The notes: generated by a model not told the origin, from the sequence alone. Shown: positions 4,261 to 21,567, numbered from the stretch's first letter. The stretch: 64,000 nt of DNA from Candidatus Magasanikiibacteriota bacterium (GCA_014729395.1 WJJZ01000002.1:673-64672), one strand, 5' to 3'. A program made the numbers and translations.

Positions 4261-4265
4261 GGTCT

Positions 4266-4845: not shown

Positions 4846-4949
4846 AACCAAGGCCCGGTCTACCTGTGGTGGATGTCGCGTCGCTTGAATCAACAAGCGA
4901 TCCCGAAATTACTCGGGAGGAGCTACACTGGTTTTTGAAGGAGGAAGAG
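4846..4949 (+). promoter_or_regulatory. Conserved structured 5' leader element, type 1, copy 1
   Basis: AACCAAGGCCCGG...GTCGCTTG-aatcaa-CAAGCGAT, then CCCGA-aattac-TCGGG, then GAGGAGCTACACTGGTTTTT, then GAAGGAGG-N6-ATG. Also at 10027, 19850 and 21459. Confidence 0.7.
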
Positions 4950-5183
4950 ATGAAAAGAAAGATGGGCCTATGGCCCATGTGTATTTGCGGAGTAGAGCTC
5001 GCCGACGGGCACGAACTGTGTCCTGAGTGCGAGCAGGTGGAGGCCGACGGCCGCTGTTTGGGCTGCCGTCGGCCTGTCGAGGATGGACACCGAAGTCAGA
5101 TCGGGTTGTGCCCGGTCTGTACTGAATTGGTTCTTGACGGCGTGGAAGAGGCACGCCGCGAGACCATGTCTATCCCCGACTAA
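4950..5183 (+). CDS. Small zinc-ribbon protein (77 aa; CxC, CPEC, CLGC, CPVC)
   Basis: A GGAGG RBS lies directly after the type-1 leader. Four Cys pairs are present. The terminator hairpin T1 follows. Confidence 0.5.
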   Translation: MKRKMGLWPMCICGVELADGHELCPECEQVEADGRCLGCRRPVEDGHRSQIGLCPVCTELVLDGVEEARRETMSIPD

Positions 5184-5220
5184 AAACCGGTCATTCTAGG
5201 TGATCGCATACGTTCTTTCA

Positions 5221-5262
5221 ACACACAGGCACACATCCTAGACCCTGTGTGCCTCTACTTTT
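5221..5262 (+). terminator. Conserved-loop terminator hairpin T1 (GGCACACA-TCCTAGACCC-TGTGTGCC plus a T-rich tail)
   Basis: Member of a family of 5-6 hairpins. The loop TCCTAGACCCTG is invariant and the stems show compensatory changes. A conserved block TTCTGAAAGCG lies at 5285-5295. Confidence 0.65.
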
Positions 5263-5535
5263 AGAGATTGTAAATATTTATGATTTCTGAAAGCGTTTTG
5301 ATTTTGAAAAAATTGAAGCGTGTGATCGTTTTAAAAAAACCGTCTGACAAGGGCGGATGAAAATATAGAGAAAAGAGACCTTGGGCAGCCCTGCCCGGTT
5401 GGTTGTGTTACTAAACCTAAAAGTTATAGCGCACAGCAAGTCGATTTAGTTCGGCCGAGCAGGGTGGGTATGCCTCGACAGATGTCGGGGTAAGCGTTGC
5501 CGTAAGGCGCGCTACCGCTGCTTGAGGAGTCCAAG

Positions 5536-8500
5536 ATGACGAAGTCGAAAAAAAAGGGTTCCTGCAAGCCTTCGAGTGCGGGAATCAATGATTTGCCAAT
5601 CGTTGATTTTAAGGATGAGATCATGGGGAGTAGCGCCCCCTACATCATTGTCGAAGCCGAGACCGGCTCCGGCAAGTCGACTATGGTGCCCCAGTGGTTC
5701 CATGAGCTCGACATGTCGGTGCTCGTGACCGAGCCGTTGATTGAGACGGTAATCGGTACGAGCGAGTACGTGGCCCAGCTCATGGGCTGCGAGTTCGGCT
5801 CGACGGTCGGTTATCGTACGGGCAGTAGCCGGTGCGACAGCCGGGAGACTGATGTGCTTTTTTGCACGGACGGTCTTGCGCTCGTGCGCGAGTTGTCGGG
5901 ACACAATCGTTTCGACGTGCTCGTCATCGACGAGCTCCACGAGTGGAATACTAATCAGTCCACTCTGGAGGCCTGGGCGTGGAAGCATCTTCAGGCGGGC
6001 GATAGCCCGTTCCAAAAGATCGTGGTGCTGTCGGCCACTTTGAACTCGGACGAGCTCTCGCGCAAGCGGGGCAATGCTCCGGTGTTCAAGGTTCCCGGTC
6101 GACAGTTCCCGATCGAGGATCGGCGTGCCGGTTCGTCGATCGAGGCGGACGTGAAGTCGCTCGTCGCCGAGGGGCACGACGTCCTGGTCTTCCAGCCTGG
6201 GGCAAACGAGATCCGTGAGACCATCCAGACGCTCGAGCGTATGGAGGTCAATGCGGAGCTCATCCCGTTTTACGGGAAGCTCAGCCGGGAGGACAAGACC
6301 AGGGCGTACCGGTCGTACGGTCGTTCCAAGGTGGTGGTTTCGACCAACGCTTTGGAGACCGGCCGAACACTTGTGCCGTCACCCGGGCGCAAGCTCGCGG
6401 TCGTTGACTCCGGGCTCGAAAAGCGAGTGGAGCTCGACAATGATGGAATCGAGGGTTTGTACCTGGAGCCCATCGCCAAGGCTAAGGCCATGCAGCGTCG
6501 CGGTCGCACGGGTCGCGTTGGTGAGGGGATCTATATTGATCATTGTCCCTCCGCCGGCCGTCCGGCGTACCCCGTACCGGAAATTCTCCGGACGCGACTC
6601 GACCAGACCGTTTTGCGGTTGGCGTGTCATGGGTACGACGCGACCGAGCTTCCCTTCTTCCACGAGCTCGACATGAGCGTCATCGCGGAGGCCAAGCGGG
6701 CTCTGCAGGCGCTCGGAGCGATGCGGGAGGATGGAGACGTGACCAAGACGGGGCGTCTCATGTCCCGTCTGCCGGTCTCGGTCGGTCAGGCGCGGATGAT
6801 TATCGAGGCGGACAAGCGTGGTGTGGTGGACGATGTGATCACCATCGCCGCGATCTTGAACGTCAAGGGCATTTGTGACCGCACCGGAGCGTGGCGGGCG
6901 TACACCGTCGAGAAGCGTTCCGATGTTTTGGTCGAGCTGGACCTCTGGCAGGCCGCTCGTGGCAAGCGGAATCGCGAGCTGCGGGACATGGGGATCTTCG
7001 CCAAGGATTACCAACGAGCACGGCAGATCCGCCGCAAGCTCGTGGACGTCTTGCGACAGCATCGCGTGAAGCTGGGTTCGTCCGGCGATCGCGAAGAGAT
7101 CCTCAAGTCGGTTTGCGCCGGTATGGTCGACCACCTGTACAAGTTTTCTCATACAGACAGGATGGGGAACTGGTACGTAAATGGTGGGTCGTCCACTGCG
7201 CGGTTGCTTGGCAACCAGAGTGTGGTGGATGGCGGCCCGGACTGGCTGGTCGCGATTGGGTTCAATGTGCCGACCCGAAAGGGAGGCACACTCCCGATCG
7301 TCACGCAGGTGACGGCGGTTGAGCCCATGTGGCTCGCCGAGGTCGCTCCACAGCTGGTTGAGGTCAAAACCGGTCTCTCCCCCCGGTATGACCAGGAGAA
7401 GGACCTCGTGACTTCGGTCACCGAGATGTACTTCAACGGTCAGAAGGTGCGGGAAGAGAGGGTTGATGACCCGACTCATCCGGAGGCTGCGAGGCTTTTC
7501 GCCCAATATCTGGCAAGCCGTAACGATGTCGAGCCAATGTGTTCGAATTGTCGTCAGGCAAACCGGATGAAAGAGCTCAACATTCGGGCCGGCGAGGACA
7601 TCTTCCCGGTACCCGACATGGCGAGCTTCTACCAGGAGCGACTGAATGGTGCTCGTTCGATCCAAGAGATCGAGCCGGGTACCAGCCTCCGTTTGCCCAC
7701 CCTCGACGAGGAGCTCGTCAAGATGGTGATGGATGAAAATCCTGATACCATTCAACTCCTCGGAGAAGAGTTGACGGTGGAGTATCGGGCGCCATATTAT
7801 GGCCAGCCCAGAGCTCCGCGTGTGAAGCTCACGGATGAGCTCGTCAGCACGAATCGCTGGCTCGAGCTTCCGGACGAGGGAGTGTGGCTCCCGAGCGGTC
7901 GCTCAGTAGAGCTGGTGGTGTCCTTTGGGCACTACAATGAGCTCTCTGGGACCGACATCCCGAAGTTGAAGGTTGAGATGAGAGATTATCTCAACCGGAA
8001 GCAGTGGGATTCTTGGGTCAAGCCCGAGATCGAGATTCCGGATCTGTCGGCCGATGACGCCGTCGTCCCGTTTGTCACCAAGGTCTATGGGACCTGTGTT
8101 ACAACGGGTGACGAGCTCATGGCCTACGGTACAATAGCCGTGAACACGAGTCGCTGGTATGCAAGTGATCCGCTGTTCAAGGCCATGTGGTACCGCGATT
8201 TGATCGCGGCCCAGAACGCCGCCGACGCCTCCGCCGAGAAGCTCGTCGAGAAAAAAGATGAGCTGAAAGCGGCGAGGGCGCTCGAGCTGGCGAAGACCGA
8301 GGCTGAGGCCGCGCGCAAGGAGCTCCAAAATCTCAAGGGTCGTGAAGACTGGGAAGAGCTGGAGTACGACTTGCGGAGTCGAGTTAGCGACTTGCTCTAC
8401 CGCTCGTTGCCGCGCTCCATCGATGAACTTCGAGAGGATATTGAATCCACCAAGGCACTGATTGCCGAAGTGGAGAGTGCACTCGAGAAGTTCGAGAACG

Positions 8501-9507
8501 AGCGTGAGGCGGAAGAACAGCGCCTGCTCGAGGCCGAGGAGCGCGGAGAAATCCTGCGCGACTTCGAAGCCTGGCATCGCCGGGGCGGTATGACCGGCAA
8601 CGGAGACGGCTGGGTGATACGGCCGGACGGCAGCCTCCGCGACCGTGACAGTGATACAGTGCCACGCTACAAGCACGATGGCCAGTATCACTGGGACATG
8701 GTCAAGCCGGAGGAGCTGGCTCTCAGCTGGCGCTGCAGCACCAGGCGCGACGTCGACGGCACGAGCGACTTTAAAGTCGTGAAGGTGCCTGTCGACGGTG
8801 TGACGTCGGAGCAACTGCGCCGGGTGGAGGAGATCGAAGACGGTATCGGTGCAAGCCGTGGCGCTTTCGGCCTCCACGCCGAGATCACCCGCCGCAACGA
8901 GGAGCGTCTCGAGGCCTGCCGTGAGGCAGCTCTCAATGCTCGGGTGCGCGGTTCCCAGATCCTACGGAAGTTGCCGGAGACCTTCAGCTGGTTGAAGCTT
9001 GCCGGTGACGGCGTTCTCAACCTTGAGCACTATGTGGAGGACAGGAATGTCTTCCGCTACGTCAACTGGGCAGCAGAGTACGTGGGAGTCTGCGACAACC
9101 GCGACGCCTTTCTTCTCTTCGAGACAACCGCGGCCGATGGCAAGTTGCAGTTCGTCGTATATGAAAAATACGGCTCGAGCGACAACCTGGCTGTCCGCTG
9201 GCGGGAATTCACGGAAGAGGAGCTCGCTCAGCAGGCCGAGCATGAGACGCCCCAAGGCGACGGCCATTTCGTCGAGCGCTCCACCCGCCATTTCGCTTGC
9301 GATTGTGGTGGAACGACTCGGATAACCAAGTCCGAGTGGAAGCGCTACCGGCGAGGTGAGGTGCTGGAGCTCACCTGCACCCACTGCGGAGCTACCGGCA
9401 CTGTCTGCAAGGAAGCGGACGAAGAGCCGGAGGCGAAGCAGAACGGGAACGGCTCGAGCGGAGGCGGCGCCTCGATGGCCGATCTCATGGCCAAGTTCAA
9501 TCGCTGA
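5536..9507 (+). CDS. DEAH-box (HrpA/HrpB-like) ATP-dependent helicase with HA2 domain and long C-terminal extension, 1323 aa
   Basis: Walker A AETGSGKST, the DEAH box VIDELHEW, SATL, TNALETG, QRRGRTGR and an HA2-like block RLMSRLPVSVGQARMII...IAAILN are all present. The C-terminal roughly 600 aa has predicted coiled coil (residues about 890-1010) and a CxC...CxxC zinc knuckle near the end. It is not the DUF3418 tail found in E. coli HrpA. Confidence 0.85.
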   Translation: MTKSKKKGSCKPSSAGINDLPIVDFKDEIMGSSAPYIIVEAETGSGKSTMVPQWFHELDMSVLVTEPLIETVIGTSEYVAQLMGCEFGSTVGYRTGSSRCDSRETDVLFCTDGLALVRELSGHNRFDVLVIDELHEWNTNQSTLEAWAWKHLQAGDSPFQKIVVLSATLNSDELSRKRGNAPVFKVPGRQFPIEDRRAGSSIEADVKSLVAEGHDVLVFQPGANEIRETIQTLERMEVNAELIPFYGKLSREDKTRAYRSYGRSKVVVSTNALETGRTLVPSPGRKLAVVDSGLEKRVELDNDGIEGLYLEPIAKAKAMQRRGRTGRVGEGIYIDHCPSAGRPAYPVPEILRTRLDQTVLRLACHGYDATELPFFHELDMSVIAEAKRALQALGAMREDGDVTKTGRLMSRLPVSVGQARMIIEADKRGVVDDVITIAAILNVKGICDRTGAWRAYTVEKRSDVLVELDLWQAARGKRNRELRDMGIFAKDYQRARQIRRKLVDVLRQHRVKLGSSGDREEILKSVCAGMVDHLYKFSHTDRMGNWYVNGGSSTARLLGNQSVVDGGPDWLVAIGFNVPTRKGGTLPIVTQVTAVEPMWLAEVAPQLVEVKTGLSPRYDQEKDLVTSVTEMYFNGQKVREERVDDPTHPEAARLFAQYLASRNDVEPMCSNCRQANRMKELNIRAGEDIFPVPDMASFYQERLNGARSIQEIEPGTSLRLPTLDEELVKMVMDENPDTIQLLGEELTVEYRAPYYGQPRAPRVKLTDELVSTNRWLELPDEGVWLPSGRSVELVVSFGHYNELSGTDIPKLKVEMRDYLNRKQWDSWVKPEIEIPDLSADDAVVPFVTKVYGTCVTTGDELMAYGTIAVNTSRWYASDPLFKAMWYRDLIAAQNAADASAEKLVEKKDELKAARALELAKTEAEAARKELQNLKGREDWEELEYDLRSRVSDLLYRSLPRSIDELREDIESTKALIAEVESALEKFENEREAEEQRLLEAEERGEILRDFEAWHRRGGMTGNGDGWVIRPDGSLRDRDSDTVPRYKHDGQYHWDMVKPEELALSWRCSTRRDVDGTSDFKVVKVPVDGVTSEQLRRVEEIEDGIGASRGAFGLHAEITRRNEERLEACREAALNARVRGSQILRKLPETFSWLKLAGDGVLNLEHYVEDRNVFRYVNWAAEYVGVCDNRDAFLLFETTAADGKLQFVVYEKYGSSDNLAVRWREFTEEELAQQAEHETPQGDGHFVERSTRHFACDCGGTTRITKSEWKRYRRGEVLELTCTHCGATGTVCKEADEEPEAKQNGNGSSGGGASMADLMAKFNR

Positions 9508-9635
9508 CAATTCAACCGGCCTGACCACAAGAAAACAGGGCCGGATAAAAAATAATATGTTTTCTGCGGAAAAACCGGCGGCCGTCCCAATAGGGAATAG
9601 AGCCGGTTTACATATATGTTCTTTTTTGGTAATTT

Positions 9636-9665
9636 TGGGGACAGGACTGAACATCCTAGTCCCCA
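9636..9665 (+). terminator. Variant of the conserved-loop hairpin (TGGGGA...ACATCCTAG-TCCCCA), T6
   Basis: It shares ATCCTAG with the T1-T5 loop. It lies 130 nt downstream of the helicase stop. At 9574-9612, an AAACCGGC/GCCGGTTT hairpin and a T-run precede it. Confidence 0.35.
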
Positions 9666-9737
9666 CCCTTCACTACTTATTTAAAATTTAGATAAGTGTT
9701 GAAGGGAAATTGGTTCCCTTCAGCAGAGGGAGGTGTC

Positions 9738-10016
9738 ATGAAAAGAGAGATAGTTGTCGCGGACAGGGACTTTGAAGTGTACCGACCGGAGCGCCGGTAC
9801 TACCGCCTAGATCGTAGGCACTGGGATCTGGAGCCTGGTACCCGGGTGACCGTGAAGGTGTGGCGGAAAAAAGGTCGCTACAAGATTCTGAGTGCGGTCG
9901 TTGTTGAATTTTTTTACTGGTGTCAGTGTGGGGTTTGTGACCCCACCTATTTCAAGGCCGCTATGCTGAACCGCCATTTCGACGGTAAGCTGAAGCGAAA
10001 GGATACAGACTATTAG
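9738..10016 (+). CDS. Hypothetical small protein, 92 aa
   Basis: GGGAGG lies 5 nt upstream of the ATG. GC-rich. Contains CQCGVCD. Confidence 0.4.
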   Translation: MKREIVVADRDFEVYRPERRYYRLDRRHWDLEPGTRVTVKVWRKKGRYKILSAVVVEFFYWCQCGVCDPTYFKAAMLNRHFDGKLKRKDTDY

Positions 10017-10026
10017 AAAACAAAAA

Positions 10027-10157
10027 AACCAAGGCCCGACTTGCCTGTCTGCTTTACAAAGTGGTGAAGAGATTGGCAGGTGTCGTGTTGCCTGAATCAA
10101 CAGGCAAGCTTGGGATTTTCCCAGGTGGAGCTACACTGGTTTTGAAAGGGGTAAGAG
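10027..10157 (+). promoter_or_regulatory. Type-1 leader element, diverged copy 2
   Basis: The same architecture is kept with compensatory stems: TTGCCTG-aatcaa-CAGGCAA and TGGGA-ttt-TCCCA. GAGCTACACTGGTTTT is conserved. An RBS and the ATG at 10158 follow. Confidence 0.65.
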
Positions 10158-10640
10158 ATGAAGAAAATCACGGACGCTTGTAACGAGCAGAGCTCAGTGG
10201 TCATCCAGGTGGCCGGAGGGTACATGAAGTGGTACCCGGCAGATGAGCAGAGGAGAGTGGAGTTCTACCTCCAGGGAATCGAAATCGATCCCCGGGTTCA
10301 GGCGGTGGATTTGCTCCTTGCCATGAACCAAGACGATGACATGGTGTTATGTAGCATCAATTGTCCGTCATTGGTACTTCCAATGGAAGTGATCGAGGAG
10401 AACGAACTCCTCATCGCCGATGGTGCTGTCTGGTTCAGGCGACCGTCCAGTGAAGGTGGTGAGCGCTACCCCGAGCCACCATCGAGATTGCGGTACACGG
10501 TCAAGGCACCTGGGGGATTTTCTCCGTGGGGTACGACCAACTGCCTCGAAGAGGCGCAGAGAATCCAACAAAAAGCTCTTGAGGAGGGTGTTGAGGACAT
10601 CGGTATCCGGGAAAATTCGAGTGGCAAATATCTAGGGTAA
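10158..10640 (+). CDS. Hypothetical protein, 160 aa
   Basis: Preceded by the type-1 leader and followed by T2. GC-rich. Confidence 0.5.
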   Translation: MKKITDACNEQSSVVIQVAGGYMKWYPADEQRRVEFYLQGIEIDPRVQAVDLLLAMNQDDDMVLCSINCPSLVLPMEVIEENELLIADGAVWFRRPSSEGGERYPEPPSRLRYTVKAPGGFSPWGTTNCLEEAQRIQQKALEEGVEDIGIRENSSGKYLG

Positions 10641-10669
10641 TGAATGTCGTTAGAAAAATTTTTAACCTC

Positions 10670-10712
10670 CGGGCACACATCCTAGACCCTGTGTGTCCAT
10701 TCTTTCAAAGAT
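10670..10712 (+). terminator. Conserved-loop terminator hairpin T2
   Basis: GGCACACA-TCCTAGACCC-TGTGTGTCC plus TTCTTTC. A TTGAAAGCAC block follows at about 10731. Confidence 0.65.
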
Positions 10713-10863
10713 CATAATAATTTGTGGTTTTTGAAAGCACCGTCTACTTGTGTTAGGCGGTGCAAGAAGCTTTGTTAAAAATATCTTTGCAGCCTCTAAT
10801 TATTTGATAATTAGAATCTCTCTCCGCTGCAATCTATATTTTTGATAAAAGCAAAAAATAAAA

Positions 10864-10900
10864 TCCCGCTTTGGCTCTAGTCCACAGCGGGGTTTTGTTT
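10864..10900 (+). terminator. Intrinsic terminator at the right edge of GC island A
   Basis: CCCGCT...AGCGGG stem plus TTTTGTTTT. Composition switches to AT-rich immediately after. Confidence 0.5.
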
Positions 10901-10964
10901 TCATATTTATTTTGCTATTATTAAACTAATCTTATTTTGATCAATTTATATTAAATTATAAAAT

Positions 10965-12305
10965 ATGAGAGAAGATGTTACATTAAACAAATCAGCAGCA
11001 AGATTTAATTCTGATATTCCGGAAATTGATAATGACAGAGAAAACTATCTGCAGGAAGTAAAAAATAATAGGAAAATATTAATCAGAGATATGGCAGCTG
11101 ATGATGAACTTTCCGACATTAATCCGGACAAAATGCTAGCTAAACTTCAAACTGATTGGCTTGAGAAAATTAGCAAAGAACAAAAAGATTTGATAGCCGG
11201 TCATGTTGATTTGGATTTTATTGAAAAAAGCGTTTTTAGTTATGATTACGAAGAACTTGTTTTGCATGTTTTGCTTTTAAATCAACTGGCAAAGGAATTT
11301 TATATTATCAGACCGTTTTCATGGAAAAGTGAGGAACTTGGTTTGTTTGATGAAGAGCTTGAAGAATATAATGAAAAAAGAGAAGGGATTTCAAGTAAAT
11401 TTTATGAGATCAAAGAAATAGTATTGGCCAAAGCTTGTCAGCTGGCATCTTTTCAGGCCCCTGAATTTAGCTATGGTTTGGATGAGGATGGTGGTACTCC
11501 TATTTTATATTTTGATTTACCGGGTTATGGTCAGTTTAGTTTTCACATGCCAAATATTAACCAACCTTATAGATCTAATGAACATATTGCAAAACTCTAT
11601 AAAATTCTTGATATACCCAAGTATCATGGAGACTGGAAACAAAGAAATAAACGGCCTATATCTCGAATGACAACAGAAAAAGCCGAAGAAATAATTGCTG
11701 AAGGGGAACATATTGTGTCATTGGAAGATATTGAGCAGTATCTCAGTGAAAGAGAAGATATTAACCCCAAAAAAGCACACGATTTATATTTTAGGGCAAT
11801 GGCCCATCCGGATTTCCATAAAAATAAAGAGAAAATTGATGAATTACTTTTCAAACATGCGCCCACTGTTCCCGGAGCTTTGTCCCAAGCCTATCTAGAT
11901 GGTTTTGATTTGCCCTATAAGTATTATTCAAAAAAAATTAAGAAACGTGAACCATGGATGGATCATCTATATCCAACTTATCATGATATAATTTTTTATA
12001 TTGAAGAGTTAGATGCCTTGTTGGATTTTGCACAAAAAAATCAACCAAACGAAGAGTTAAAAGAGTCGACATTTTATGATCTTGAAGAATTGGAGCAACA
12101 AAAAACAAAAGTAGAGACTGATACGAATTTGGTGAAACAAAAATTAAACAGAATATTAAAACCGGCCTTACTTTTTTATCTGGAAGACGATAATCGTTAT
12201 GACGTCCCTCTGAGAAGAAAGATATACAACAAATTAGAAAAATTACTGGAAAGGTTTAATATGGAATTAGGCGATTACTTGACCGGGGATCAATTTGTCG
12301 GTTAA
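10965..12305 (+). CDS. Hypothetical acidic protein, 446 aa (AT-rich, host-like codon usage)
   Basis: Long uninterrupted ORF with no recognisable motifs. Confidence 0.6.
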   Translation: MREDVTLNKSAARFNSDIPEIDNDRENYLQEVKNNRKILIRDMAADDELSDINPDKMLAKLQTDWLEKISKEQKDLIAGHVDLDFIEKSVFSYDYEELVLHVLLLNQLAKEFYIIRPFSWKSEELGLFDEELEEYNEKREGISSKFYEIKEIVLAKACQLASFQAPEFSYGLDEDGGTPILYFDLPGYGQFSFHMPNINQPYRSNEHIAKLYKILDIPKYHGDWKQRNKRPISRMTTEKAEEIIAEGEHIVSLEDIEQYLSEREDINPKKAHDLYFRAMAHPDFHKNKEKIDELLFKHAPTVPGALSQAYLDGFDLPYKYYSKKIKKREPWMDHLYPTYHDIIFYIEELDALLDFAQKNQPNEELKESTFYDLEELEQQKTKVETDTNLVKQKLNRILKPALLFYLEDDNRYDVPLRRKIYNKLEKLLERFNMELGDYLTGDQFVG

Positions 12306-12331
12306 TAAATGGTAGGTTCCAAGAGTTTTTT

Positions 12332-12661
12332 TTAGTTCAGCTTCAAATTATTTTTTCTAATAATCAAATCCAATTTTTTTTCAGTTTTGTCTTGTCTAAG
12401 AGCAAGAGCGGTATCATTTTTTACCAGAAAATCAACATGCTCAGTTATTTCAAGCCTAAGTTCATTTAAATCCCTTCTGGTAGCCATGGTATTGTGAATT
12501 TCATCAAGTTCTCGGTGAATTGACGCAATATCGTCTTTAGTAGCCATGTTCTTGATATCGTCTTTAGTAGCCATGTTTGCCAGGTCATCTTTGTTAGCGG
12601 CATTTTCACTCATAAATTGAATGATCTCATAGACGTCTTTGATTGTAGGATCTTTTTTCAT
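12332..12661 (-). CDS. Coiled-coil repeat protein, paralog 3 (about 109 aa; NMATKDDI repeats)
   Basis: N- and C-terminal blocks near-identical to paralog 2. An in-frame 27-bp tandem repeat lies at 12521-12575. The upstream promoter region is shared with the other copies. Confidence 0.7.
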   Translation of the reverse strand: MKKDPTIKDVYEIIQFMSENAANKDDLANMATKDDIKNMATKDDIASIHRELDEIHNTMATRRDLNELRLEITEHVDFLVKNDTALALRQDKTEKKLDLIIRKNNLKLN

Positions 12662-12744
12662 AATAAAATTATTTATCAAATAAATTATATTAATTATCAT
12701 ATCAAAAAGCAAATGAAGTTTTGATAAAAAAATTATAAAATTTA

Positions 12745-12787
12745 TGTGAGTAAAAAATTAAACAAACCCCATATAAGAGGTTTGTTT
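12745..12787 (-). terminator. recA intrinsic terminator (minus strand)
   Basis: AAACAAACC-ccatataaga-GGTTTGTTT, followed on the minus strand by a T-run. Confidence 0.6.
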
Positions 12788-12820
12788 GAAGTAATAAATT
12801 TTTGATTACTTATTGCAGTA

Positions 12821-13885
12821 TTATTTATCAACCGTTTCTTTTTCTCCAGGCTTACCCTTTTCCTCTTCAGGTGCTTCACCTCTTTCAACGGCTTCCCAAA
12901 TTTTCTTTTCAATTTTTTTCATCATTTTTGGGTGTTCTCTTAGAAATAGTTTTGCTTTTTCTCTACCAACGCCGAGTTTTTCTTCTCCAAAACTATATGT
13001 ATTACCCGATTTATTGACGACCTTGTGTTCAATTCCGGAATCAAGCAAATCACCTGATATGGAAATTCCTTCATTGTACATGATATCAAATACGGTTGTT
13101 CTAAATGGTGCAGCCACCTTGTTTTTTACCACTTTTACTTTTACGCGATTCCCAATTACCCGGTCACCTTGTTTTATTTGGGCAGAGCGACGGACTTCTA
13201 TCCTAACAGAAGAATAAAATTTCAGAGCATTACCACCGGTAGTGGTTTCGGGGTTGCCAAAAAACACCCCTATCTTATGTCTGGTTTGATTTATGAAGAC
13301 TACCGAAGTCTTGGTCTTACTGACAATGCCGGCCAGTTTTCGAAGAGCTTGACTCATAAGACGAGCTTGCAGGCCCATGTGAGAATCTCCCATCTCACCT
13401 TCGATTTCAGCCTTAGGGACAAGCGCAGCCACTGAATCTATCACGACCACATCCACAGCATTTGACCTAACCAGAGTTTCCAGGATTTCCAAGGCCTGTT
13501 CACCGGTGTCGGGTTGGGATATTAGCAAGTTATCTACATCCACACCGATTTTTCTGGCATAATCCGGATCAAGAGCATGCTCGGCATCAATAAAAGCGGC
13601 AATGCCATCTTTTTTTTGAACTTCTGCGATAATATGTTGGGCCAATGTGGTTTTACCACTGGATTCTGGGCCAAATACCTCAATAATTCTACCTCTTGGT
13701 ACACCTTTTACACCAAGGGCGATGTCAAGCGAGATTGAACCGGTAGAGACCGCTTCCACTTGCATGGCGCGGGCCTCGGAGAATTTCATAATTGAACCAT
13801 CACCGTATTTTTGTTTAATTTGACCAATGGCGGTTTCAGCCGCTTTAAATTTGGCTTTTTGTTCATCGGTTTGTTTTTTGGGCAT
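12821..13885 (-). CDS. recA: Recombinase RecA
   Basis: Walker [10 protein letters not shown] and canonical RecA blocks across 354 aa. Confidence 0.97.
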
Positions 13886-13955
13886 AGTGATCTTGAATTA
13901 ATGTATAATTTTTTATTATCTAAATTAGAGATTGGTGATTAGAGGTCAGAAATTA

Positions 13956-14348: not shown

Positions 14349-14451
14349 TCTCCAGTCTCAAATCTCTAATTTTTATTCTTCACTCTTTCTTTTTATTTTC
14401 AATCACTACAACTCTATCACAAACCACATAAAATTTCCCTAAAATTAATAT

Positions 14452-14486
14452 AAAGGACCAAAAAAGAGGGGATTGCGCCCTCTCTT
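14452..14486 (-). terminator. Intrinsic terminator downstream of the 14565..15251 gene (minus strand)
   Basis: AGAGGGG-attgc-GCCCTCTC hairpin, with a T-run on the minus strand. Confidence 0.5.
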
Positions 14487-14564
14487 AGTGATATATTACT
14501 TTTTTTAAAAAATGGTGTCAAATAAATTCAATAATAATTCTCACAAATTAAAATACAAAATGAT

Positions 14565-15251: not shown

Positions 15252-15323
15252 ATTTTATAATCCTAACGTTCATCGAACCTTGGCAACGAAATAATGACAG
15301 AATTAATAGATAAAAATTAACAA

Positions 15324-17768: not shown

Positions 17769-17984
17769 AGTGCGTATATTGTATCATATTAGTTTGGTAC
17801 TGAAAATAGGAAAACAGCGTTGTTTTTTGCGGGGGGAAAGTATATAATATTAGGGATTGAAGATTATTGACTGGTGATTGGAAAATAATAGTCTGGAATA
17901 GCGATCGAGAATAATTTAAAAACCAACAATCACTAATCTCCGGCCTCTAATAATCAATATTTAAAAATAATCTAAAAAATACAT

Positions 17985-18752
17985 ATGCAACGTTGGAATA
18001 ACTATCTACAATCACTGGGTCTTTCGGAAAATGAAGCTAAAATTTATCTACACACTTTAAAAAAAGGCCAGCAGACTGTTCAACAGATTTCCACGGGAAC
18101 AAACTTGTCACGAGTAACAGTTTATGCGGCAATTGACACTCTAATCGAAATGGGGCTTATCAGCAGTGTGCAAAAAGGAAAAAGAAAATTGTTTTCCGCC
18201 GAACCGCCGGAGAGGATAGTGTCGGTTGCTGAGACAAAAGTAAAAAAAATGGAAAACATGATAAATGAGATGTCTTCTCACCTACAGGAATTAAAATTGG
18301 CTCAAAGCGGTGACAAACCGGTGGTTAAGTTTTTTGAAGGACCGGAGGCATACAGGATTGTTAACGAAGATTTAATTGAAACTAAACCAAAGGAAATATA
18401 TGAATTCGGGAACATTGAAGAGCTTCAGAGGATTTATAGTGGAGAGGATAAAAAAATATCTGAAGAAATTATAGATAAGTTAGATCAGTTTTTTAAAGGG
18501 TCTGATATTAAGAGAAGGAGTATCCATGTTGGTAGTCATGATCCAGAAAGATTTGTTGATAAAGGAGACGTTCAGAGAGTTTTTTTGGATAAGAATAAAT
18601 ATAAGTTTTACGGTGATATTTTTTTATATAAAAATAAAATATGGCTGTCCAGTTTTAGGGGCAAACAGATTTCAATTTTAATTGAAAGTGGATTACTATA
18701 TGATACCCTTAAAGCATTATTTGATATTTCTTGGCGTTCATTAAAAAAATAA
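17985..18752 (+). CDS. TrmB-family transcriptional regulator (HTH)
   Basis: N-terminal wHTH LSENEAKIYLHTLKKGQQTVQQIS...VTVYAAIDTLIEMGLI. A paralog lies at 51428-52192. Confidence 0.7.
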   Translation: MQRWNNYLQSLGLSENEAKIYLHTLKKGQQTVQQISTGTNLSRVTVYAAIDTLIEMGLISSVQKGKRKLFSAEPPERIVSVAETKVKKMENMINEMSSHLQELKLAQSGDKPVVKFFEGPEAYRIVNEDLIETKPKEIYEFGNIEELQRIYSGEDKKISEEIIDKLDQFFKGSDIKRRSIHVGSHDPERFVDKGDVQRVFLDKNKYKFYGDIFLYKNKIWLSSFRGKQISILIESGLLYDTLKALFDISWRSLKK

Positions 18753-18800
18753 GACCCAAGCCACATTGTAAAATATGACTCGGGTCTGTCGAACTGGCTA

Positions 18801-19250
18801 CTAGTCAGTCGGGATGGGTCCGCCGACCCAATCCTCTGCGCTTTCGCCTCGCTTTTTTAATAGTGTGCATATTCTCATACTCCCATTTCTCCTTCTCCTT
18901 TCGGGTCGGTTTAAAGACCCTTGCTTATTGAAACCCCATTGTTTTTGGGTTTCCACCAAAAAAGGATATTGGGAGTATGCGATCGATCCTCTCCTTGTGA
19001 GAGGTTTTTTTGGTCTATCACCATCCTTTTGTGGATATGGCAGAATGACCAAAAAAAATATTTTCGATCCTTGGTTGCCGAGATTGAAGTTCCCGGCAAA
19101 TTTGGCCACCGCACTTCGGTGGTTATGTTTCGCATCCTCCATTTTTATCCCTCCTTTTTGAAGGGGAAACCATATCTCATCTACCACATGCAAGATGAGA
19201 TTTACATATTTGGAAAACCGAGGGGTCTTTTCCGATCTTCCAAATAACAT
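18801..19250 (-). CDS. Hypothetical ORF of atypical composition (could be non-coding)
   Basis: Open frame only. Several frames are open on both strands here. No motif found. Confidence 0.25.
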   Translation of the reverse strand: MLFGRSEKTPRFSKYVNLILHVVDEIWFPLQKGGIKMEDAKHNHRSAVAKFAGNFNLGNQGSKIFFLVILPYPQKDGDRPKKPLTRRGSIAYSQYPFLVETQKQWGFNKQGSLNRPERRRRNGSMRICTLLKKRGESAEDWVGGPIPTD

Positions 19251-19401
19251 ATAATAATACCATAAAAAACTTAATTTGTCAAGGATAGCTTTACAATTTA
19301 AATTCCTAGTTTAAATATAAGTGTTTAATCTTGCTTTACATATAAATTTAGCTAAATTCAGCTAAATTTCATTATTTTACAAAAAAACAGTAAAGCAGCT
19401 C

Positions 19402-19430
19402 TTGACAAAATTATTAAAGTATGCTATTAT
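19402..19430 (+). promoter_or_regulatory. Near-consensus sigma70-type promoter (TTGACA-17-TATTAT)
   Basis: Exact -35 hexamer, 17-nt spacer, and a -10 matching 5 of 6 positions. Confidence 0.6.
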
Positions 19431-19434
19431 TATA

Positions 19435-19453
19435 TGTTCATCAAATATGAACA
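19435..19453 (+). promoter_or_regulatory. Operator-like perfect palindrome TGTTCAT-caaat-ATGAACA overlapping the predicted +1
   Basis: 7-bp perfect inverted repeat placed 5-8 nt after the -10. Confidence 0.5.
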
Positions 19454-19849
19454 GAATCATTCAAGAATTTATTTCTTGGAATCAGGCCCGGAAAAGCGAG
19501 CATACTCGATGGGACAAATTCATTTTCAGCCCAGAAAGAGCAGCTCAATATTTCGGCTCTTAAAAAACTGTAAATCCTGTAATTTTGACGCCTAAAAGGA
19601 TAAACAAGCTTTGGCAAGTTTATTCATGTCAATTCCTTACTTTATTTACGGTTTCTTGCCACCCGGGCTTTGTTCCAAGAAGTAATTATCATGCTTGTCG
19701 TGAATATGGAATTTATTATTACAATGTATATATTTTTCGTCTTGGCTTGCAGTACTCTAGTAAGAGTATAAAGAGCCCGATTACTGCCCCTTTCTTATTG
19801 ATTTGTTTTAAATGTCGATATGAATGGGACAGTAATTTCAACCAAAAAA

Positions 19850-19953
19850 AATCAAGGCCCGGTTCGCTGACATGCGGACGACGCGTCGCTTGAATCAACA
19901 AGCGATCCCGAAATTACTCGGGAGGAGCTACACTGGTTTTTAAAGGAGGAAAG
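19850..19953 (+). promoter_or_regulatory. Type-1 leader element, copy 3
   Basis: ATCAAGGCCCGG...GTCGCTTGAATCAACAAGCGATCCCGAAATTACTCGGGAGGAGCTACACTGGTTTTT then AAAGGAGGAAAG then ATG. Confidence 0.7.
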
Positions 19954-20070
19954 ATGGAAAGAACTAATATTCGGGACGAGACCGTGATGTTCGAAGAGAC
20001 CATCACCGGCGCTTGCCTCGTGGCAGGTGCATGGGGGGCGTTTCTCGCCCTCGTTTTCCTGGTCTTCTAG
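19954..20070 (+). CDS. Small ORF, 38 aa, with C-terminal hydrophobic helix
   Basis: AGGAGG RBS directly after the type-1 leader. It was absent from the ORF track because it is shorter than 60 aa. Confidence 0.4.
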   Translation: MERTNIRDETVMFEETITGACLVAGAWGAFLALVFLVF

Positions 20071-20236
20071 GCCGGGGGAACCTTGTCCCAAAAAACCCCC
20101 GACGGACTTTACATCCGATCGGGGACATTACTGAAATCCGGATTAGTCCGGGTTTGAGTAATGACACAGACAAATCGATCATCTGTTAACGGAGGGGTGA
20201 TCGGTTTTTTAATTGCCAAAACAAAAAGGAGAGGAC

Positions 20237-20581
20237 ATGAGCGAAAAAAGTTTTACCTGCCCAATCTGCAAGTTTTCGACAACGATCGAAAAAGCTTGGG
20301 TACCGAGCTTTGATTTCATCTCCAGTCAAACCGGTAAGAATCCGGTGAGGCTGGGGGATCTGAAGTGTTTCGCGGTTTGTCGTCGCTGTGCGGGAGACCT
20401 GCGTCGGGAACTGAAGATGAGATATTACCGCTTCAGTGATTCAGCGGAGCGGATTCGGAAAAGAGAAGTTAGACAGAGGGCGACACGGCGCAAGAAGCGC
20501 CAAAAACGTACCGCAACAAAGTTCAAGGATTTATTCTGTGCCAAGGATGGCAAGATAATTCCAATTCAGAAAACCTCATGA
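20237..20581 (+). CDS. Small zinc-ribbon protein with basic C-terminus (114 aa)
   Basis: RBS AAAAAGGAGAGGAC-ATG. The same RBS context serves the next gene. Contains CPICKF...C...CRRC. Confidence 0.55.
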   Translation: MSEKSFTCPICKFSTTIEKAWVPSFDFISSQTGKNPVRLGDLKCFAVCRRCAGDLRRELKMRYYRFSDSAERIRKREVRQRATRRKKRQKRTATKFKDLFCAKDGKIIPIQKTS

Positions 20582-20597
20582 CAAAAAAGGAGAGGAC

Positions 20598-20876
20598 ATG
20601 TCTAGGACATGGCGCAGCACCTATGCAAAGCCGGGGGTGTCAAAAAAAACCGGCCAGCGTAAACTCGACAATGATCGCCGACGGCAGCTAAATAAACGTT
20701 GCCCAGAGTGCGAGGCAAGGCAATGTATATGCCAAATATTGAGTCGGCAAAATGTTGATATAGACGTAATTAATGATTGTTGGTATTTTGATGGGTTTGA
20801 AGAGACGGCCGAAATTGATTATGAAATCGACTGGAGTCGATTCGATGAAATATTCGAATTCATAAAGAAAAGTTGA
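20598..20876 (+). CDS. Small Cys-rich protein (92 aa), paralogous to the N-terminus of 22404-22892
   Basis: MSRTWRS...NDRRRQLNKRCPECEARQCIC compares with MSRTRRW...NEKRRADRKWAVRNPSCPDCGRFRCEC. Confidence 0.55.
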   Translation: MSRTWRSTYAKPGVSKKTGQRKLDNDRRRQLNKRCPECEARQCICQILSRQNVDIDVINDCWYFDGFEETAEIDYEIDWSRFDEIFEFIKKS

Positions 20877-20892
20877 GAACGCGCAAATATTG

Positions 20893-20984
20893 GGGGGAGC
20901 TCTGAAATTATCAGGGCGCCTTTTCTTGGAGCGTTTCTATAAGCGAGCCAAGATAAGGCATAAACAAACAAAAAGGAGGAAAAA
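20893..20984 (+). promoter_or_regulatory. Type-2 leader element, copy 1
   Basis: GGGGGAGCTCTGAAATTATCAGGGCGCCTTTTCTTGGAGCGTTT...AAGGAGG-ATG. A second copy lies at 22910-23003. Confidence 0.55.
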
Positions 20985-21326
20985 ATGGAAGAAAAACGCA
21001 AGGCAGGTCTGGCACGTCTTAAAAAAGAATCGATGAAGAGATTGATTGATAAATTTGATGATGAGAAGTTTATCGAAAAAATTGCAAAGTCTTTGGCTTT
21101 TTCTCATCATAATAAATTGAGACAAAAGCAATATGGAAGAATAAGGTTTTTAAGAGGTGTTATTGATAAGCCAACCGAGCGAATTCGCCGATATAATAGG
21201 CATCGATTCCATTATTCAATATATGAGATAGATGCCAATGATATTGAATATTTCGGACGCCGATTATGGGCCGAATGTCTACGCTTGCGTTTAGCACGCA
21301 AGCAGGAATGGCTTGCAAAGCAGTGA
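20985..21326 (+). CDS. Hypothetical basic protein, 113 aa
   Basis: Preceded by the type-2 leader and followed by T3. Confidence 0.55.
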   Translation: MEEKRKAGLARLKKESMKRLIDKFDDEKFIEKIAKSLAFSHHNKLRQKQYGRIRFLRGVIDKPTERIRRYNRHRFHYSIYEIDANDIEYFGRRLWAECLRLRLARKQEWLAKQ

Positions 21327-21353
21327 TATAATAATTTCTAGGGATAAAACAAT

Positions 21354-21392
21354 TGGTATATATCCTAGACCCTGTATACTTTTTCTTTCAGA
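21354..21392 (+). terminator. Conserved-loop terminator hairpin T3
   Basis: GGTATATA-TCCTAGACCC-TGTATACT plus TTTTTCTTTC. An ATTCTGAAAGCAC block follows at 21411. Confidence 0.6.
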
Positions 21393-21458
21393 GCGTATGA
21401 ATTTATTCATGTATTCTGAAAGCACCATGAATGCATCGTGGTGTGGAAGAGAAACTCT

Positions 21459-21567
21459 AATACCGAGGCCCGGTTCGCTGATCGGCGAATGTCGCGTCGC
21501 TTGAATCAACAAGCGATCCCGAAATTACTCGGGAGGAGCTACACTGGTAAAAAGTTTTAGGAGGGTT
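21459..21567 (+). promoter_or_regulatory. Type-1 leader element, copy 4
   Basis: Same sequence as copy 3 up to CTACACTGG, then AGGAGGG RBS and ATG at 21568. Confidence 0.7.

What the first reader, a model, noticed from the sequence alone, without database searches (positions are those of the whole stretch)
4846..21567. Novel structured 5' leader motif (about 100 nt, four copies) with compensatory base changes, upstream of small cassette genes in both accessory regions
Copies at 4846-4949, 19850-19953 and 21459-21567 are near-identical: AACCAAGGCCCGG, a spacer, hairpin GTCGCTTG-AATCAA-CAAGCGAT, hairpin CCCGA-AATTAC-TCGGG, GAGGAGCTACACTGGTTTT, a GGAGG RBS and the ATG. The copy at 10027-10157 keeps the architecture and the single-stranded parts (AATCAA loop, GAGCTACACTGG) but swaps both stems coordinately (TTGCCTG/CAGGCAA and TGGGA/TCCCA). 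This is strong covariation evidence for a functional hairpin structure. It shares no evident similarity with riboswitch classes I could recall. It could be a regulatory RNA leader (translational control of cassette genes), an antitermination or processing site, or an ssDNA-hairpin promoter of the kind seen in plasmid leading regions. An apparent 21-codon uORF (MSRRLNQQAIPKLLGRSYTGF) is not frame-conserved in the diverged copy, so the conserved unit is structural rather than coding.
Basis: seen in the sequence. Interest (0 to 1): 0.8.

Follow-up and report, generated by a model that had tools for sequence, protein, structure and literature searches.

The report
New four-stem RNA leader, CPR islands
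Four copies of a previously undescribed ~95-120-nt RNA fold (a four-way junction) sit just upstream of the ribosome-binding sites of four unrelated small genes in foreign-DNA islands of an uncultivated Magasanikbacteria genome. The fold is real and under selection, but I found it in no other genome and its function is still a guess.

Summary
There are exactly four copies, all on the + strand (4843-4936, 10025-10143, 19847-19941, 21461-21549). A covariance model scores them 93-111 bits; the next best hit in the window scores 12. The junction also has a closing helix P1, an invariant helix P1b and a variable hairpin P2. It has 33 pairs, 97% paired, and 10 pairs carry compensatory changes. All 14 G-U pairs lie on the sense strand, and the consensus fold comes out reliably only with RNA parameters, so the fold is most likely RNA. 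P1 ends 11-18 nt before the ATG and the Shine-Dalgarno stays exposed. Nothing in Rfam matches, and nothing was found in about 125 kb of related genomes or in exact-pattern scans of three public collections. Homologous leaders in two other assemblies (L003, L015) keep the upstream H2-H3 hairpins but lack the junction, so it is an optional module. Best reading (0.45): a modular cis-acting 5'-UTR RNA that sets translation or mRNA stability, probably through a trans factor. Rivals are a selfish small repeat, a new riboswitch or ribozyme, and an attC-like site. The ssDNA promoter, the uORF and known RNA families are not supported.

The parts
4843..4936 (+). Copy c1 of the four-way-junction (4WJ) RNA. 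P1 4843-4850/4929-4936; P1b 4852-4856/4919-4924 with bulged A4921; P2 4858-4874; J2/3 GTCGC 4875-4879; P3 4880-4901 (loop AATCAA 4888-4893); P4 4902-4917; internal loop ACAC 4925-4928.
   Evidence: (107 bits).
4937..5183 (+). Shine-Dalgarno GGAGG (4940-4944), ATG 4950, and a 77-aa protein with four Cys pairs (zinc-ribbon-like), 59% GC.
   Evidence: (weak DZR match); SD mostly unpaired in context.
10025..10143 (+). Copy c2, the diverged copy. Same architecture with P3 and P4 swapped by compensatory changes and P2 extended by 25 nt. Starts 8 nt after the stop codon (10014-10016) of the 106-aa ORF 9696-10016, so it is intercistronic.
   Evidence: (93 bits).
10144..10640 (+). SD-like GGGG, ATG 10158, and a 160-aa ORFan, 54% GC.
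   Evidence: only a self hit among 5.8 billion proteins; AlphaFold model unusable.
19847..19941 (+). Copy c3. It lies about 410 nt downstream of the best sigma-70-like promoter of the region (19402-19430) and directly after a long hairpin (19780-19838).
   Evidence: (111 bits).
19942..20212 (+). SD GGAGG, ATG 19954, a 38-aa peptide with a hydrophobic C-terminus (to 20070), then a hairpin plus T-run at about 20176-20212, read by eye as terminator-like.
21461..21549 (+). Copy c4. P1 is shortened and changed to UACCG/UGGUA, with an A-U to U-A compensatory change relative to the other copies.
   Evidence: 105 bits.
21550..21933 (+). SD GGAGG (21560-21564), ATG 21568, and a 121-aa protein, 37% GC. 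Its homologue elsewhere (52% identity by BLASTP) lacks the 4WJ in its leader.
4774..4832 (+). H2-like hairpin (CTTCCTCA...TGAGGAAG) and H3 hairpin (GCATCACG-AATGGG-TCGTGATGC) directly upstream of c1.
21355..21446 (+). H1-H2-H3 module directly upstream of c4. H1 has the conserved loop TCCTAGACCC.
5228..5294 (+). H1-H2 module following the c1 gene.
10672..10766 (+). H1-H2-H3 module following the c2 gene. Its H1-H2 part is nearly identical to a module in relative L003.

Best explanation
The element is a self-contained RNA domain, a four-way junction, transcribed as part of the sense mRNA. It is an optional module inserted between an upstream hairpin (H3) or a preceding ORF and the Shine-Dalgarno of a single small island gene. 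P1 closes the domain 11-18 nt before the ATG and 3-10 nt before the SD, so the SD and AUG stay single-stranded. Several nucleotides are invariant: the L3 loop AAUCAA, J2/3 GUCG, the internal loop ACAC, and P1b GGCCC/GG-A-GCU. These would form a surface read by a trans-acting factor, which could be a protein, an RNA or a small ligand. I propose that folding or binding sets how well ribosomes load at the abutting SD, and/or protects the 5' end of the message after processing at the neighbouring AU-rich H2 hairpin. Shown here: the fold, the evidence of selection on it, the strand, the position, its modularity and its lack of known relatives. Inferred: that it is transcribed, that a factor binds it, and that it affects translation or stability.
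For: The fold has 33 pairs, 97% paired, with 10 pairs changed on both sides against 3.0 +/- 1.4 in shuffles and 1-2 in slid registers. It is the MFE and centroid of c1-c3 as RNA, z -4.2 to -4.6. On the sense strand 14 cells are G-U; the antisense has none, where they become A-C mismatches. The antisense RNA fold is 8-12 kcal/mol weaker for c1-c3 and about equal for c4. DNA-parameter folds are weak (-16 to -22 kcal/mol), do not reproduce the junction, and do not differ between strands. Placement is constant: same orientation as the gene, with P1 ending 13, 14, 12 and 18 nt before the ATG and an SD in between. The SD is on average 48-61% unpaired in 215-240-nt contexts. Between the two lineages, unpaired columns change less (3 of 25) than paired ones (19 of 66), which is the pattern of a specific binding surface, although p = 0.11. 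The flanks are unrelated (22-38% identity), so it is a discrete unit. Homologous leaders with the same H2-H3 hairpins exist with the junction (c1, c4) and without it (L003 DUF3228 gene; L015 homologue of the c4 gene). The neighbouring modules H1 and H2 also show sense-strand covariation, so the islands carry a set of RNA-level intergenic modules.
Against: No expression platform was found: no terminator, no anti-SD, and no alternative pairing that hides the SD consistently. The four downstream genes are unrelated and three have no homologue, so gene content gives no clue to a signal. The homologue of the c4 gene does without the element, so it is dispensable for that gene family. It was found in one genome only. 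It is absent from about 125 kb around recA in relatives and from exact-pattern scans of genome, metagenome and viral collections. Three copies share a perfectly identical 55-nt block next to a 5' third that differs by 32-39%; a simple regulatory-leader model does not predict this. There are no transcript data. In c4 the junction is not the centroid fold, and in long context it is not the MFE for c2 and c4.
Confidence: 0.45

Rival explanations
1. It is a selfish or neutral small interspersed repeat (MITE-, REP- or ERIC-like) that recently spread into A-rich leaders of this genome. Its fold is what allows it to spread or be tolerated, and any effect on the adjacent gene is incidental.
For: It is short and multi-copy. 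Three copies are near-identical while their flanks are unrelated. 'Filled' and 'empty' homologous leaders exist. It is confined to one genome as far as could be searched. P1 looks like an 8-bp terminal inverted repeat. Bacterial MITEs are co-transcribed and their RNA hairpins modulate mRNA (PMC2229807).
Against: The defining MITE features are missing. There is no target-site duplication and no consistent TA termini. The element is 51% GC in a 35% GC genome. The 'inverted repeat' is 8 bp at most, and in c4 it changed sequence while keeping its pairing. The interior has three hairpins with compensatory changes and conserved loops, which a transposase substrate would not need. All four copies have one orientation and a fixed 11-18-nt distance to an ATG. 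No transposase gene was seen among the window ORFs scanned.
Confidence: 0.22
2. It is a new class of ligand-sensing riboswitch or of self-cleaving ribozyme placed in front of island genes. This is a specific version of the RNA-leader reading.
For: It is a multi-stem junction with invariant junction and loop nucleotides, covarying stems and one variable-length peripheral hairpin, which is the usual anatomy of aptamers and small ribozymes. Small ribozymes often occur as several near-identical copies near mobile ORFans (my own knowledge). No known class matches.
Against: There is no expression platform. The downstream genes share no function. Distribution is extremely narrow, whereas riboswitch classes are usually broad. 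It is dispensable in a homologous leader. Nothing here tests cleavage or binding.
Confidence: 0.12
3. It is an attC-like, structure-specific single-stranded-DNA recombination site that marks cassette boundaries, in an integron-like capture system in a CPR bacterium.
For: It sits directly in front of a promoterless-looking ORF with only an SD in between. For c2 it sits directly after the previous ORF's stop. The downstream genes are small, co-oriented ORFans of foreign GC. The anatomy has a closing stem, an asymmetric internal loop, a bulged base and a branched terminal part, which recalls the R box, UCS, EHB and VTS of attC (PMC5027507). Copies within the genome are near-identical, as are the attC repeats of sedentary chromosomal integrons such as the Vibrio cholerae repeats (my own knowledge). 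The sharp identity break at J2/3 could be a recombination scar.
Against: The universally conserved AAC/GTT triplets are absent from c3 (AAT) and c4 (TAC/GTA). The wobble pairs favour the sense (top) strand, whereas attC works through the bottom strand. The DNA fold is weak and does not give the junction. Loop sequences are conserved, which attC does not require. Spacing is irregular: 5.2 kb and 1.6 kb with several ORFs between copies, and no copies after c4. No integrase was found among the window ORFs scanned.
Confidence: 0.07
4. It is a single-stranded-DNA hairpin promoter of the plasmid leading-region (Frpo) type, or alternatively a stand-alone small RNA gene, or a leader-peptide (uORF) attenuator.
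For: P1 ends in a U-run in three copies, which superficially resembles a terminator. A 21-codon ORF is present in c1 and c4.
Against: No -35/-10-like pair lies inside any copy. The DNA fold is poor. The context is a chromosome, with no conjugation genes seen. The U-run is paired with the 5' A-run and is replaced in c4, so it is a helix strand and not a terminator tail. The uORF lacks a start codon in c3 and shifts frame in c2.
Confidence: 0.04

Closest known systems
Orphan structured cis-regulatory mRNA leaders and riboswitch-like aptamer domains (the kind catalogued in Rfam)
   Same: About 100 nt, on the sense strand, in a 5' UTR or intercistronic position. A multi-helix junction with covarying stems, invariant junction and loop nucleotides and a variable peripheral hairpin. 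P1 abuts the ribosome-binding site.
   Different: It matches none of the 4227 Rfam families. No expression platform is recognisable. The downstream genes are unrelated ORFans. It is known from a single genome and is optional in homologous leaders.
PeSL regulatory cassettes of T4-type phages (promoter-early plus stem-loop motifs flanking ORFans in hyperplastic regions; PMC2839356, PMC4122927)
   Same: This applies to the setting rather than to the junction itself. Short conserved non-coding modules (H0, H1-H2-H3, the 4WJ) punctuate small ORFan genes in hypervariable regions. The modules are conserved between genomes while the genes between them differ. This suggests module-mediated shuffling.
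   Different: This is a bacterial (CPR) chromosome, not a phage. No sigma-70-type promoter is recognisable in H2 or H3. The 4WJ is a branched RNA domain, not a promoter or terminator. No mini-circles or recombination events have been shown.
Integron attC sites
   Same: Location directly upstream of the next ORF's SD. A folded imperfect palindrome with an internal loop, a bulge and a branched tip. Co-oriented small ORFan cargo of foreign composition.
   Different: The AAC/GTT core is not conserved. The wrong strand is favoured. Loops are conserved. Spacing is irregular. No integrase is in view.
Bacterial MITE-like repeats co-transcribed with genes (Correia/NEMIS, ERIC, RUP, BOX; PMC2229807)
   Same: Under 200 nt, multi-copy, intergenic, co-transcribed and able to fold. 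Filled and empty sites exist in related sequences.
   Different: No target duplication, no TA ends, not AT-rich, no real terminal inverted repeats. The interior is highly structured. Orientation and distance to the start codon are strict.
Phage T7 early-region RNase III processing hairpins and 5' stabiliser stem-loops of Gram-positive mRNAs (my own knowledge, not tested)
   Same: Conserved intercistronic hairpins in a run of small co-oriented genes. A stable structure at the 5' side of an exposed SD.
   Different: This is only a functional analogy. No cleavage sites or transcript ends are known here.

Membership tests
Any Rfam release 15 family (riboswitches, ribozymes, leaders, sRNAs) | Score at or above the family's gathering threshold in cmscan | tested here: not met
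   0 hits in the whole window at gathering thresholds. With E<=10 on 4780-5000 the only hits are chance-level, and the best is on the wrong strand at 23 bits against a threshold of 50. Nothing relevant in 19300-26100 or 4100-5600.
tRNA / tRNA-like cloverleaf | Detected as tRNA or tmRNA; 7-nt T and anticodon loops | tested here: not met
   ARAGORN finds 0 genes in the window. Loops are 6 nt (L3, L4), and L4 is 3 nt in c2.
Integron attC site | Conserved 5'-AAC-3'/5'-GTT-3' triplets within the R boxes RYYYAAC/GTTRRRY (PMC5027507) | tested here: not met
   c1 and c2 have AAC...GTT. c3 has AAT...GTT. c4 has TAC...GTA. The rest of the box is A/T runs, not YYY/RRR.
Integron attC site | The functional fold is on the bottom strand of ssDNA | tested here: not met
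   14 G-U(T) cells on the top (sense) strand and 0 on the bottom. DNA-parameter folds are weak, do not reproduce the junction and are equal between strands.
Integron attC site | Extrahelical bases, unpaired central spacer, variable terminal structure | tested here: inconclusive
   A bulged A in P1b, a 1x4 internal loop and a branched tip exist. However, the tip's L3 loop is sequence-conserved, unlike a VTS.
Integron attC site | Integron integrase nearby, or a regular array with one site per cassette | tested here: not met
   No Phage_integrase hit among the 40 larger window ORFs scanned. Spacings are 5.2 kb, 9.8 kb and 1.6 kb. The rest of the 150-kb contig could not be read.
Bacterial MITE | Terminal inverted repeats, TA termini, target-site duplication, A+T-rich (PMC2229807) | tested here: not met
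   Only 5-8 bp of terminal pairing, which changed sequence in c4. No duplication at the flanks. TA ends only in c4. GC is 0.49-0.53 against about 0.35 for the genome.
Bacterial MITE | Multi-copy, with filled and empty sites | tested here: met
   Four copies. Homologous H2-H3 leaders without it occur in L003 and L015.
Riboswitch (generic definition) | Conserved aptamer with covariation-supported stems | tested here: met
   (four sequences only).
Riboswitch (generic definition) | Expression platform (terminator or SD-sequestering alternative) and functionally coherent downstream genes | tested here: not met
   The SD is 48-61% unpaired and no consistent alternative helix exists. The downstream proteins are unrelated and lack any family match.
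Riboswitch / ribozyme | Ligand binding or self-cleavage | not testable with these tools
   Needs in-line probing and cleavage assays.
ssDNA (Frpo-type) promoter | A hairpin stem that reconstitutes -35 and -10 hexamers | tested here: not met
   No promoter-like pair overlaps any copy.
PeSL-type promoter-terminator cassette (for the H1-H2-H3 modules) | Strong sigma-70-like promoter next to a terminator stem-loop | tested here: inconclusive
   The stem-loops are real, with 25 pairs of which 11 have double changes. The scan finds a promoter-like pair (9 of 12) only in the 21353-21380 copy, and CPR promoter rules are not covered by the scan.

The most novel reading that the evidence does not exclude
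The junction is a new class of sensing or catalytic RNA, that is, a riboswitch for an unknown ligand or a self-cleaving ribozyme. It would work as a portable expression switch that a CPR bacterium attaches to newly captured foreign genes. Together with the H0 and H1-H2-H3 modules it would form a previously undescribed RNA-punctuated gene-capture and expression platform, an integron analogue that works without attC or IntI.
Probability: 0.1. Interest if true: 0.85.

Novelty: new member of a known kind. Interest (0 to 1): 0.5.

Why it matters
If it is functional, this is a new RNA family from the Candidate Phyla Radiation, where almost no cis-regulatory RNA has been described. It is also a portable 5'-UTR module placed in front of horizontally acquired ORFans. 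With the neighbouring conserved hairpin modules, it suggests that these reduced genomes express and shuffle foreign genes through a small set of reusable RNA or DNA punctuation elements. That idea can be tested directly with the source metagenome, metatranscriptomes and simple reporter or in-vitro assays. If it is only a lineage-specific selfish repeat, its value is limited to annotation.

Tried and rejected
1. Known RNA family. Rfam at gathering thresholds on the whole window, and at E<=10 or E<=1 on three sub-regions, gave nothing.
2. Homologues by DNA pattern. TGAATCAACA-N(10-40)-GAGCTACACTGG gave one hit each in genome contigs and metagenome contigs. Both are chance hits without the stems. 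It gave none in viral contigs. A looser three-block pattern in viral contigs gave two loci that the model rejects. These scans need exact matches to conserved blocks, so diverged relatives would be missed.
3. blastn against phages and plasmids: no match.
4. Homologues through neighbouring genes. RecA identified the organism and 120 relatives. Model R1 found nothing in the loci fetched through RecA relatives and island genes, about 125 kb in all (L003-L011, L014-L016).
5. Homologues through cargo genes. The 160-aa protein has only a self hit. The cargo clusters that are in the collection are singletons. There are no viral relatives of three cargo proteins. A concatenated query of 13 ORFans returned nothing, not even the known self hits, so I treat that result as a tool failure, not as evidence.
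6. Pfam, PHROGs, PADLOC and NCBIfam on the leader-associated proteins gave nothing except a weak double-zinc-ribbon hit. The AlphaFold model of the 160-aa protein had pLDDT 38.9 and was not used.
7. P2 as a gene-specific antisense. Duplex energies of each P2 with its own flanks are no better than with the flanks of other copies.
8. SD sequestration: not seen.
9. uORF: not conserved.
10. The window's own 150-kb contig could not be retrieved.

Full report
WHAT IS THERE. The 12-mer GAGCTACACTGG occurs exactly four times in 64 kb. A covariance model built from the four copies (R1) was run over both strands of the window with filters off. It returns only these four, at 111, 107, 105 and 93 bits, and the next hit scores 12 bits. 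The refined limits are 4843-4936 (c1), 10025-10143 (c2), 19847-19941 (c3) and 21461-21549 (c4).

ANATOMY. The rest of the motif is also paired. The 5' AAAAACCA pairs with the 3' UGGUUUUU to form P1. GGCCC pairs with GG-A-GCU to form P1b, which is invariant and has a bulged A. The 'spacer' is a third hairpin, P2, which differs in every copy and carries a 25-nt extension in c2. The whole is a four-way junction closed by P1 and P1b. As RNA it is the minimum-free-energy and centroid structure of c1-c3 (-35 to -51 kcal/mol, z -4.2 to -4.6). It is also the MFE of c4, but there the ensemble frequency is low (0.03), the centroid differs and z is -2.2. RNAalifold gives 33 pairs, 10 of them with changes on both sides. 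On my count 97% of cells are paired. Ten double-change pairs compare with 3.0 +/- 1.4 in 500 shuffles (0 of 500 reach 10) and with 1-2 when partners are slid by 1-3 columns. The sample is small, four sequences of which three are close, so this is good but not overwhelming evidence.

WHICH STRAND, WHICH MOLECULE. All 14 wobble cells are G-U on the + strand. On the complement they become A-C mismatches, and the complement gains no wobble pair of its own. The antisense RNA folds are 8-12 kcal/mol weaker for c1-c3 and about equal for c4. With DNA parameters both strands fold weakly (-14 to -22 kcal/mol). The consensus junction is not recovered, the ensemble frequency of the MFE is below 2%, and the strands do not differ. 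The + strand is the coding strand of every neighbouring island gene. It is also the G-rich strand, which is consistent with the leading strand, so orientation relative to transcription and to replication cannot be separated here. Taken together, the folded molecule is most likely the sense transcript.

POSITION. P1 ends 13, 14, 12 and 18 nt before the ATG of a single small ORF (77, 160, 38 and 121 aa). A GGAGG sits in between (GGGG in c2). In 215-240-nt contexts the SD is on average 48-61% unpaired, and no alternative helix hides it consistently. c2 begins 8 nt after the stop codon of the preceding ORF, so the element does not need to be at a transcript start. The 21-codon uORF is not conserved: c3 has ACG instead of ATG and c2 shifts frame. 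No sigma-70-like hexamer pair lies inside any copy.

CONTEXT. RecA (12821-13885, -) is 100% identical to a protein of a Candidatus Magasanikbacteria MAG (Patescibacteria/CPR) on a 150,102-bp contig. The cargo proteins carry accessions MBD3311014-MBD3311027. The window is otherwise an ordinary chromosome of about 35% GC, with rodZ, ftsK, rpoB, rpoC, pnp, ftsH, pilB, thrS and miaB. The copies lie in two islands of 37-64% GC. Island A (about 4160-10900) lies next to recA and island B (about 19760-24030) lies between ftsK and rpoB. In more distant relatives rpoB abuts ftsK, and recA abuts spoIID or lies within about 4 kb of it, with no islands (L004-L011). The closest relative (RecA 89%, GCA_964433095.1; L003/L016) has an island at the same recA site with different, also GC-rich, cargo: DUF3228, MoxR/VWA and a Csx3-like protein. 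The genes behind the junction match no family. The 160-aa protein has no homologue among 5.8 billion proteins. Island A also carries an HrpA-like DEAH RNA helicase of 60% GC.

A SET OF MODULES, OF WHICH THE JUNCTION IS AN OPTIONAL ONE. The islands contain other conserved non-coding units.
- H1 is an 8-bp stem with covarying sequence and an invariant 10-nt loop, UCCUAGACCC.
- H2 is an AU-rich hairpin of about 17 bp, CUUUCAGA...UCUGAAAG.
- H3 is an 8-bp hairpin with a loop that starts AAU.
These units occur at 5228, 10672, 21355, 22298 and 23619, and in part at 4774. In six copies 25 pairs are predicted, 11 with double changes. The same modules occur in L003 (9350-9470 and 10040-10130, minus strand) and in L015. 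A boundary hairpin H0 (4166-4300) is about 95% identical to its L003 counterpart over about 110 nt, while the GNAT genes behind it share only 29% of residues. Aligning four homologous leaders is informative. In L003 (DUF3228 gene) and L015 (a 52%-identical homologue of the c4 gene, from a 1.3-kb JGI contig), H3 runs straight into an A-rich tract, GGAGG and ATG. In c1 and c4 the junction is intercalated between H3 and the SD. The junction is therefore a discrete, dispensable module. Its flanks are unrelated between copies (22-38% identity).

AN UNEXPLAINED DETAIL. c1, c3 and c4 are identical over the 3' 55 nt, which covers the end of J2/3, P3, P4 and the 3' strands of P1b and P1. They differ at 12-15 of the 38 5' positions (Fisher p 2e-7 to 6.5e-6), and the P2 and P1 differences are compensated. 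Simple recent duplication does not predict this. Three explanations are open: gene conversion, a recombination breakpoint in J2/3, or a partner that demands an exact sequence. P2 shows no preferential complementarity to its own flanks.

HOW IT MOST LIKELY WORKS. I commit to a sense-strand, cis-acting 5'-UTR or intercistronic RNA domain. It presents an exposed SD immediately 3' of a closed junction. Its invariant single-stranded nucleotides (L3 AAUCAA, J2/3 GUCG, loop ACAC, P1b) are read by a trans factor. The outcome is control of ribosome loading and/or protection of the 5' end, possibly after processing at H2. My confidence is 0.45. The fold, the evidence of selection on it, the strand, the placement and the modularity are shown. 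Transcription, factor binding and the regulatory effect are inferred. Between c1 and c2, unpaired columns differ less (3 of 25) than paired ones (19 of 66). That is the pattern expected of a binding surface, but it is not significant on its own (p 0.11).

RIVALS.
- A selfish small repeat (0.22) fits the narrow distribution, the near-identical copies and the filled and empty sites. It lacks target duplications, TA ends, AT-richness and real terminal repeats (features as listed in PMC2229807). It also does not explain the structured interior, the single orientation or the fixed distance to the ATG.
- A new riboswitch or ribozyme (0.12) fits the anatomy. It has no expression platform, no coherent regulon and no breadth.
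- An attC-like recombination site (0.07) fits the position between cassettes and the general hairpin, bulge and branched-tip shape. It fails on the AAC/GTT core in c3 and c4, on strand, on DNA folding, on regular spacing and on an integrase in view.
- The ssDNA promoter, stand-alone sRNA and uORF readings are not supported (0.04 together).

COMPARISON WITH KNOWN SYSTEMS. In kind, the junction is an orphan structured mRNA leader, and it belongs to no Rfam family. The setting resembles the PeSL regulatory cassettes that flank ORFans and mediate shuffling in T4-type phages (PMC2839356; PMC4122927). It also loosely resembles integron arrays. However, neither a promoter in the modules nor a recombinase was found.

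LIMITS. I could not read the rest of the source contig. The pattern scans of the large collections required exact matches to two conserved blocks. One protein search failed technically. No expression data exist. The verdict 'found in one genome only' therefore means 'not found with these searches'.

VERDICT. The feature is real and the fold is real and most likely RNA. It is a new family of a known kind of element with unknown function and a very narrow known distribution. Interest is 0.5. It would rise sharply if more homologues, a ligand, cleavage activity or a role in cassette capture were shown.

Noticed in passing
window 5228-5294, 10672-10766, 21355-21446, 22298-22372, 23619-23692, partial at 4774-4832; L003 9350-9470(-) and 10040-10130(-); L015 195-262 and 622-705: H1-H2-H3 intergenic module family. 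H1 is an 8-bp covarying stem with the invariant loop TCCTAGACCC. H2 is an AU-rich hairpin of about 17 bp. H3 is an 8-bp hairpin whose loop starts AAT. In six copies 25 pairs are predicted, 11 with double changes. The modules are conserved between genomes while the genes between them differ.
   Followed up: partly
window 4166-4300; L003 10730-10850(-): Boundary hairpin 'H0', with outer stem ATCTAACCACCAC/GTGGTGGTTAGAT and inner stem CAAAGAGG/CCTCTTTG around GTTCTAGCTAGA. It is about 95% identical between two genomes over about 110 nt, although the GNAT genes that follow share only 29% of residues.
   Followed up: partly
window A2 columns 64-119 (for example 4875-4931) versus columns 1-63: The three close copies of the junction are identical over the 3' 55 nt but differ at 32-39% of the 5' 38 nt (Fisher p <= 6.5e-6). 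The differences are compensated in P2 and P1.
   Followed up: partly
window ~4160-10900 and ~19760-24030; also 1000-2000: Islands of 45-64% GC in a CPR chromosome of about 35% GC. They are filled with co-oriented ORFans, many of them small Cys-rich or Arg/Lys-rich proteins. They sit at sites (recA side, ftsK-rpoB) that are empty in more distant Magasanikbacteria.
   Followed up: partly
window 5536-9507 (+), leader 5295-5535: An HrpA-like DEAH-box RNA helicase (1323 aa, 60% GC) lies inside island A, between two junction copies. It is preceded by a GC-rich untranslated stretch of about 240 nt that looks structured.
   Followed up: partly
window 20885-20936 and 22904-22955: A 52-nt repeat, 92% identical, with a terminator-like hairpin GCTCTGA-AATTA-TCAGGGC plus a T-run. 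Each copy follows one of two weakly paralogous 'MSRT(W/R)R...CPxC' zinc-ribbon genes (20598-20876, 22404-22892). Its loop resembles the L4 loop of the junction.
   Followed up: partly
window 6-370, 3594-4108, 12332-12765: Three copies (82-87% identity for the two complete ones) of a small coiled-coil protein gene on the minus strand, each with its upstream region. They bracket the variable segments. L003/L016 has a repeat-rich homologue, with an assembly gap, at the same place.
   Followed up: partly
window 2257-2484 and 3274-3501; 2105-2165 and 3100-3165; 2487-2547: Further repeated non-coding modules around an mCpol-domain gene (2574-3080): a 228-nt direct repeat (93% identical), a second shared block (TAACCCCAA...GAGGGCGCAAGAGCTG), and a 27-bp inverted repeat that is also present in L016 near 6470-6530.
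   Followed up: no
window 19954-20212: The gene behind copy c3 encodes a 38-aa peptide with a hydrophobic C-terminal half. It is followed by a hairpin plus T-run that I read by eye as terminator-like. The unit looks like a type I toxin or a small membrane peptide.
   Followed up: no
window 24030-26100: About 2 kb with no convincing ORF upstream of rpoB. It contains a 22-bp inverted repeat (24038-24059 / 24478-24499, 95%) around 418 AT-rich nt, a GC palindrome (CCTGCCTGCCGGCAGGCAGG, ~24500) and several strong hairpins. There are no Rfam hits.
   Followed up: no
L016 5200-6640: A non-coding stretch in the relative's island with two tRNA T-arm-like segments (GGTTCGATTCC) and a 60-nt direct repeat (5878-5938 / 6357-6417). 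It may hold tRNA-like or other RNA genes.
   Followed up: no
P0127 (2507 aa) and P0128 (1170 aa), hits of window 21568-21933: The 121-aa protein behind copy c4 corresponds to a domain that recurs 5-7 times in two giant proteins of the representative library.
   Followed up: no
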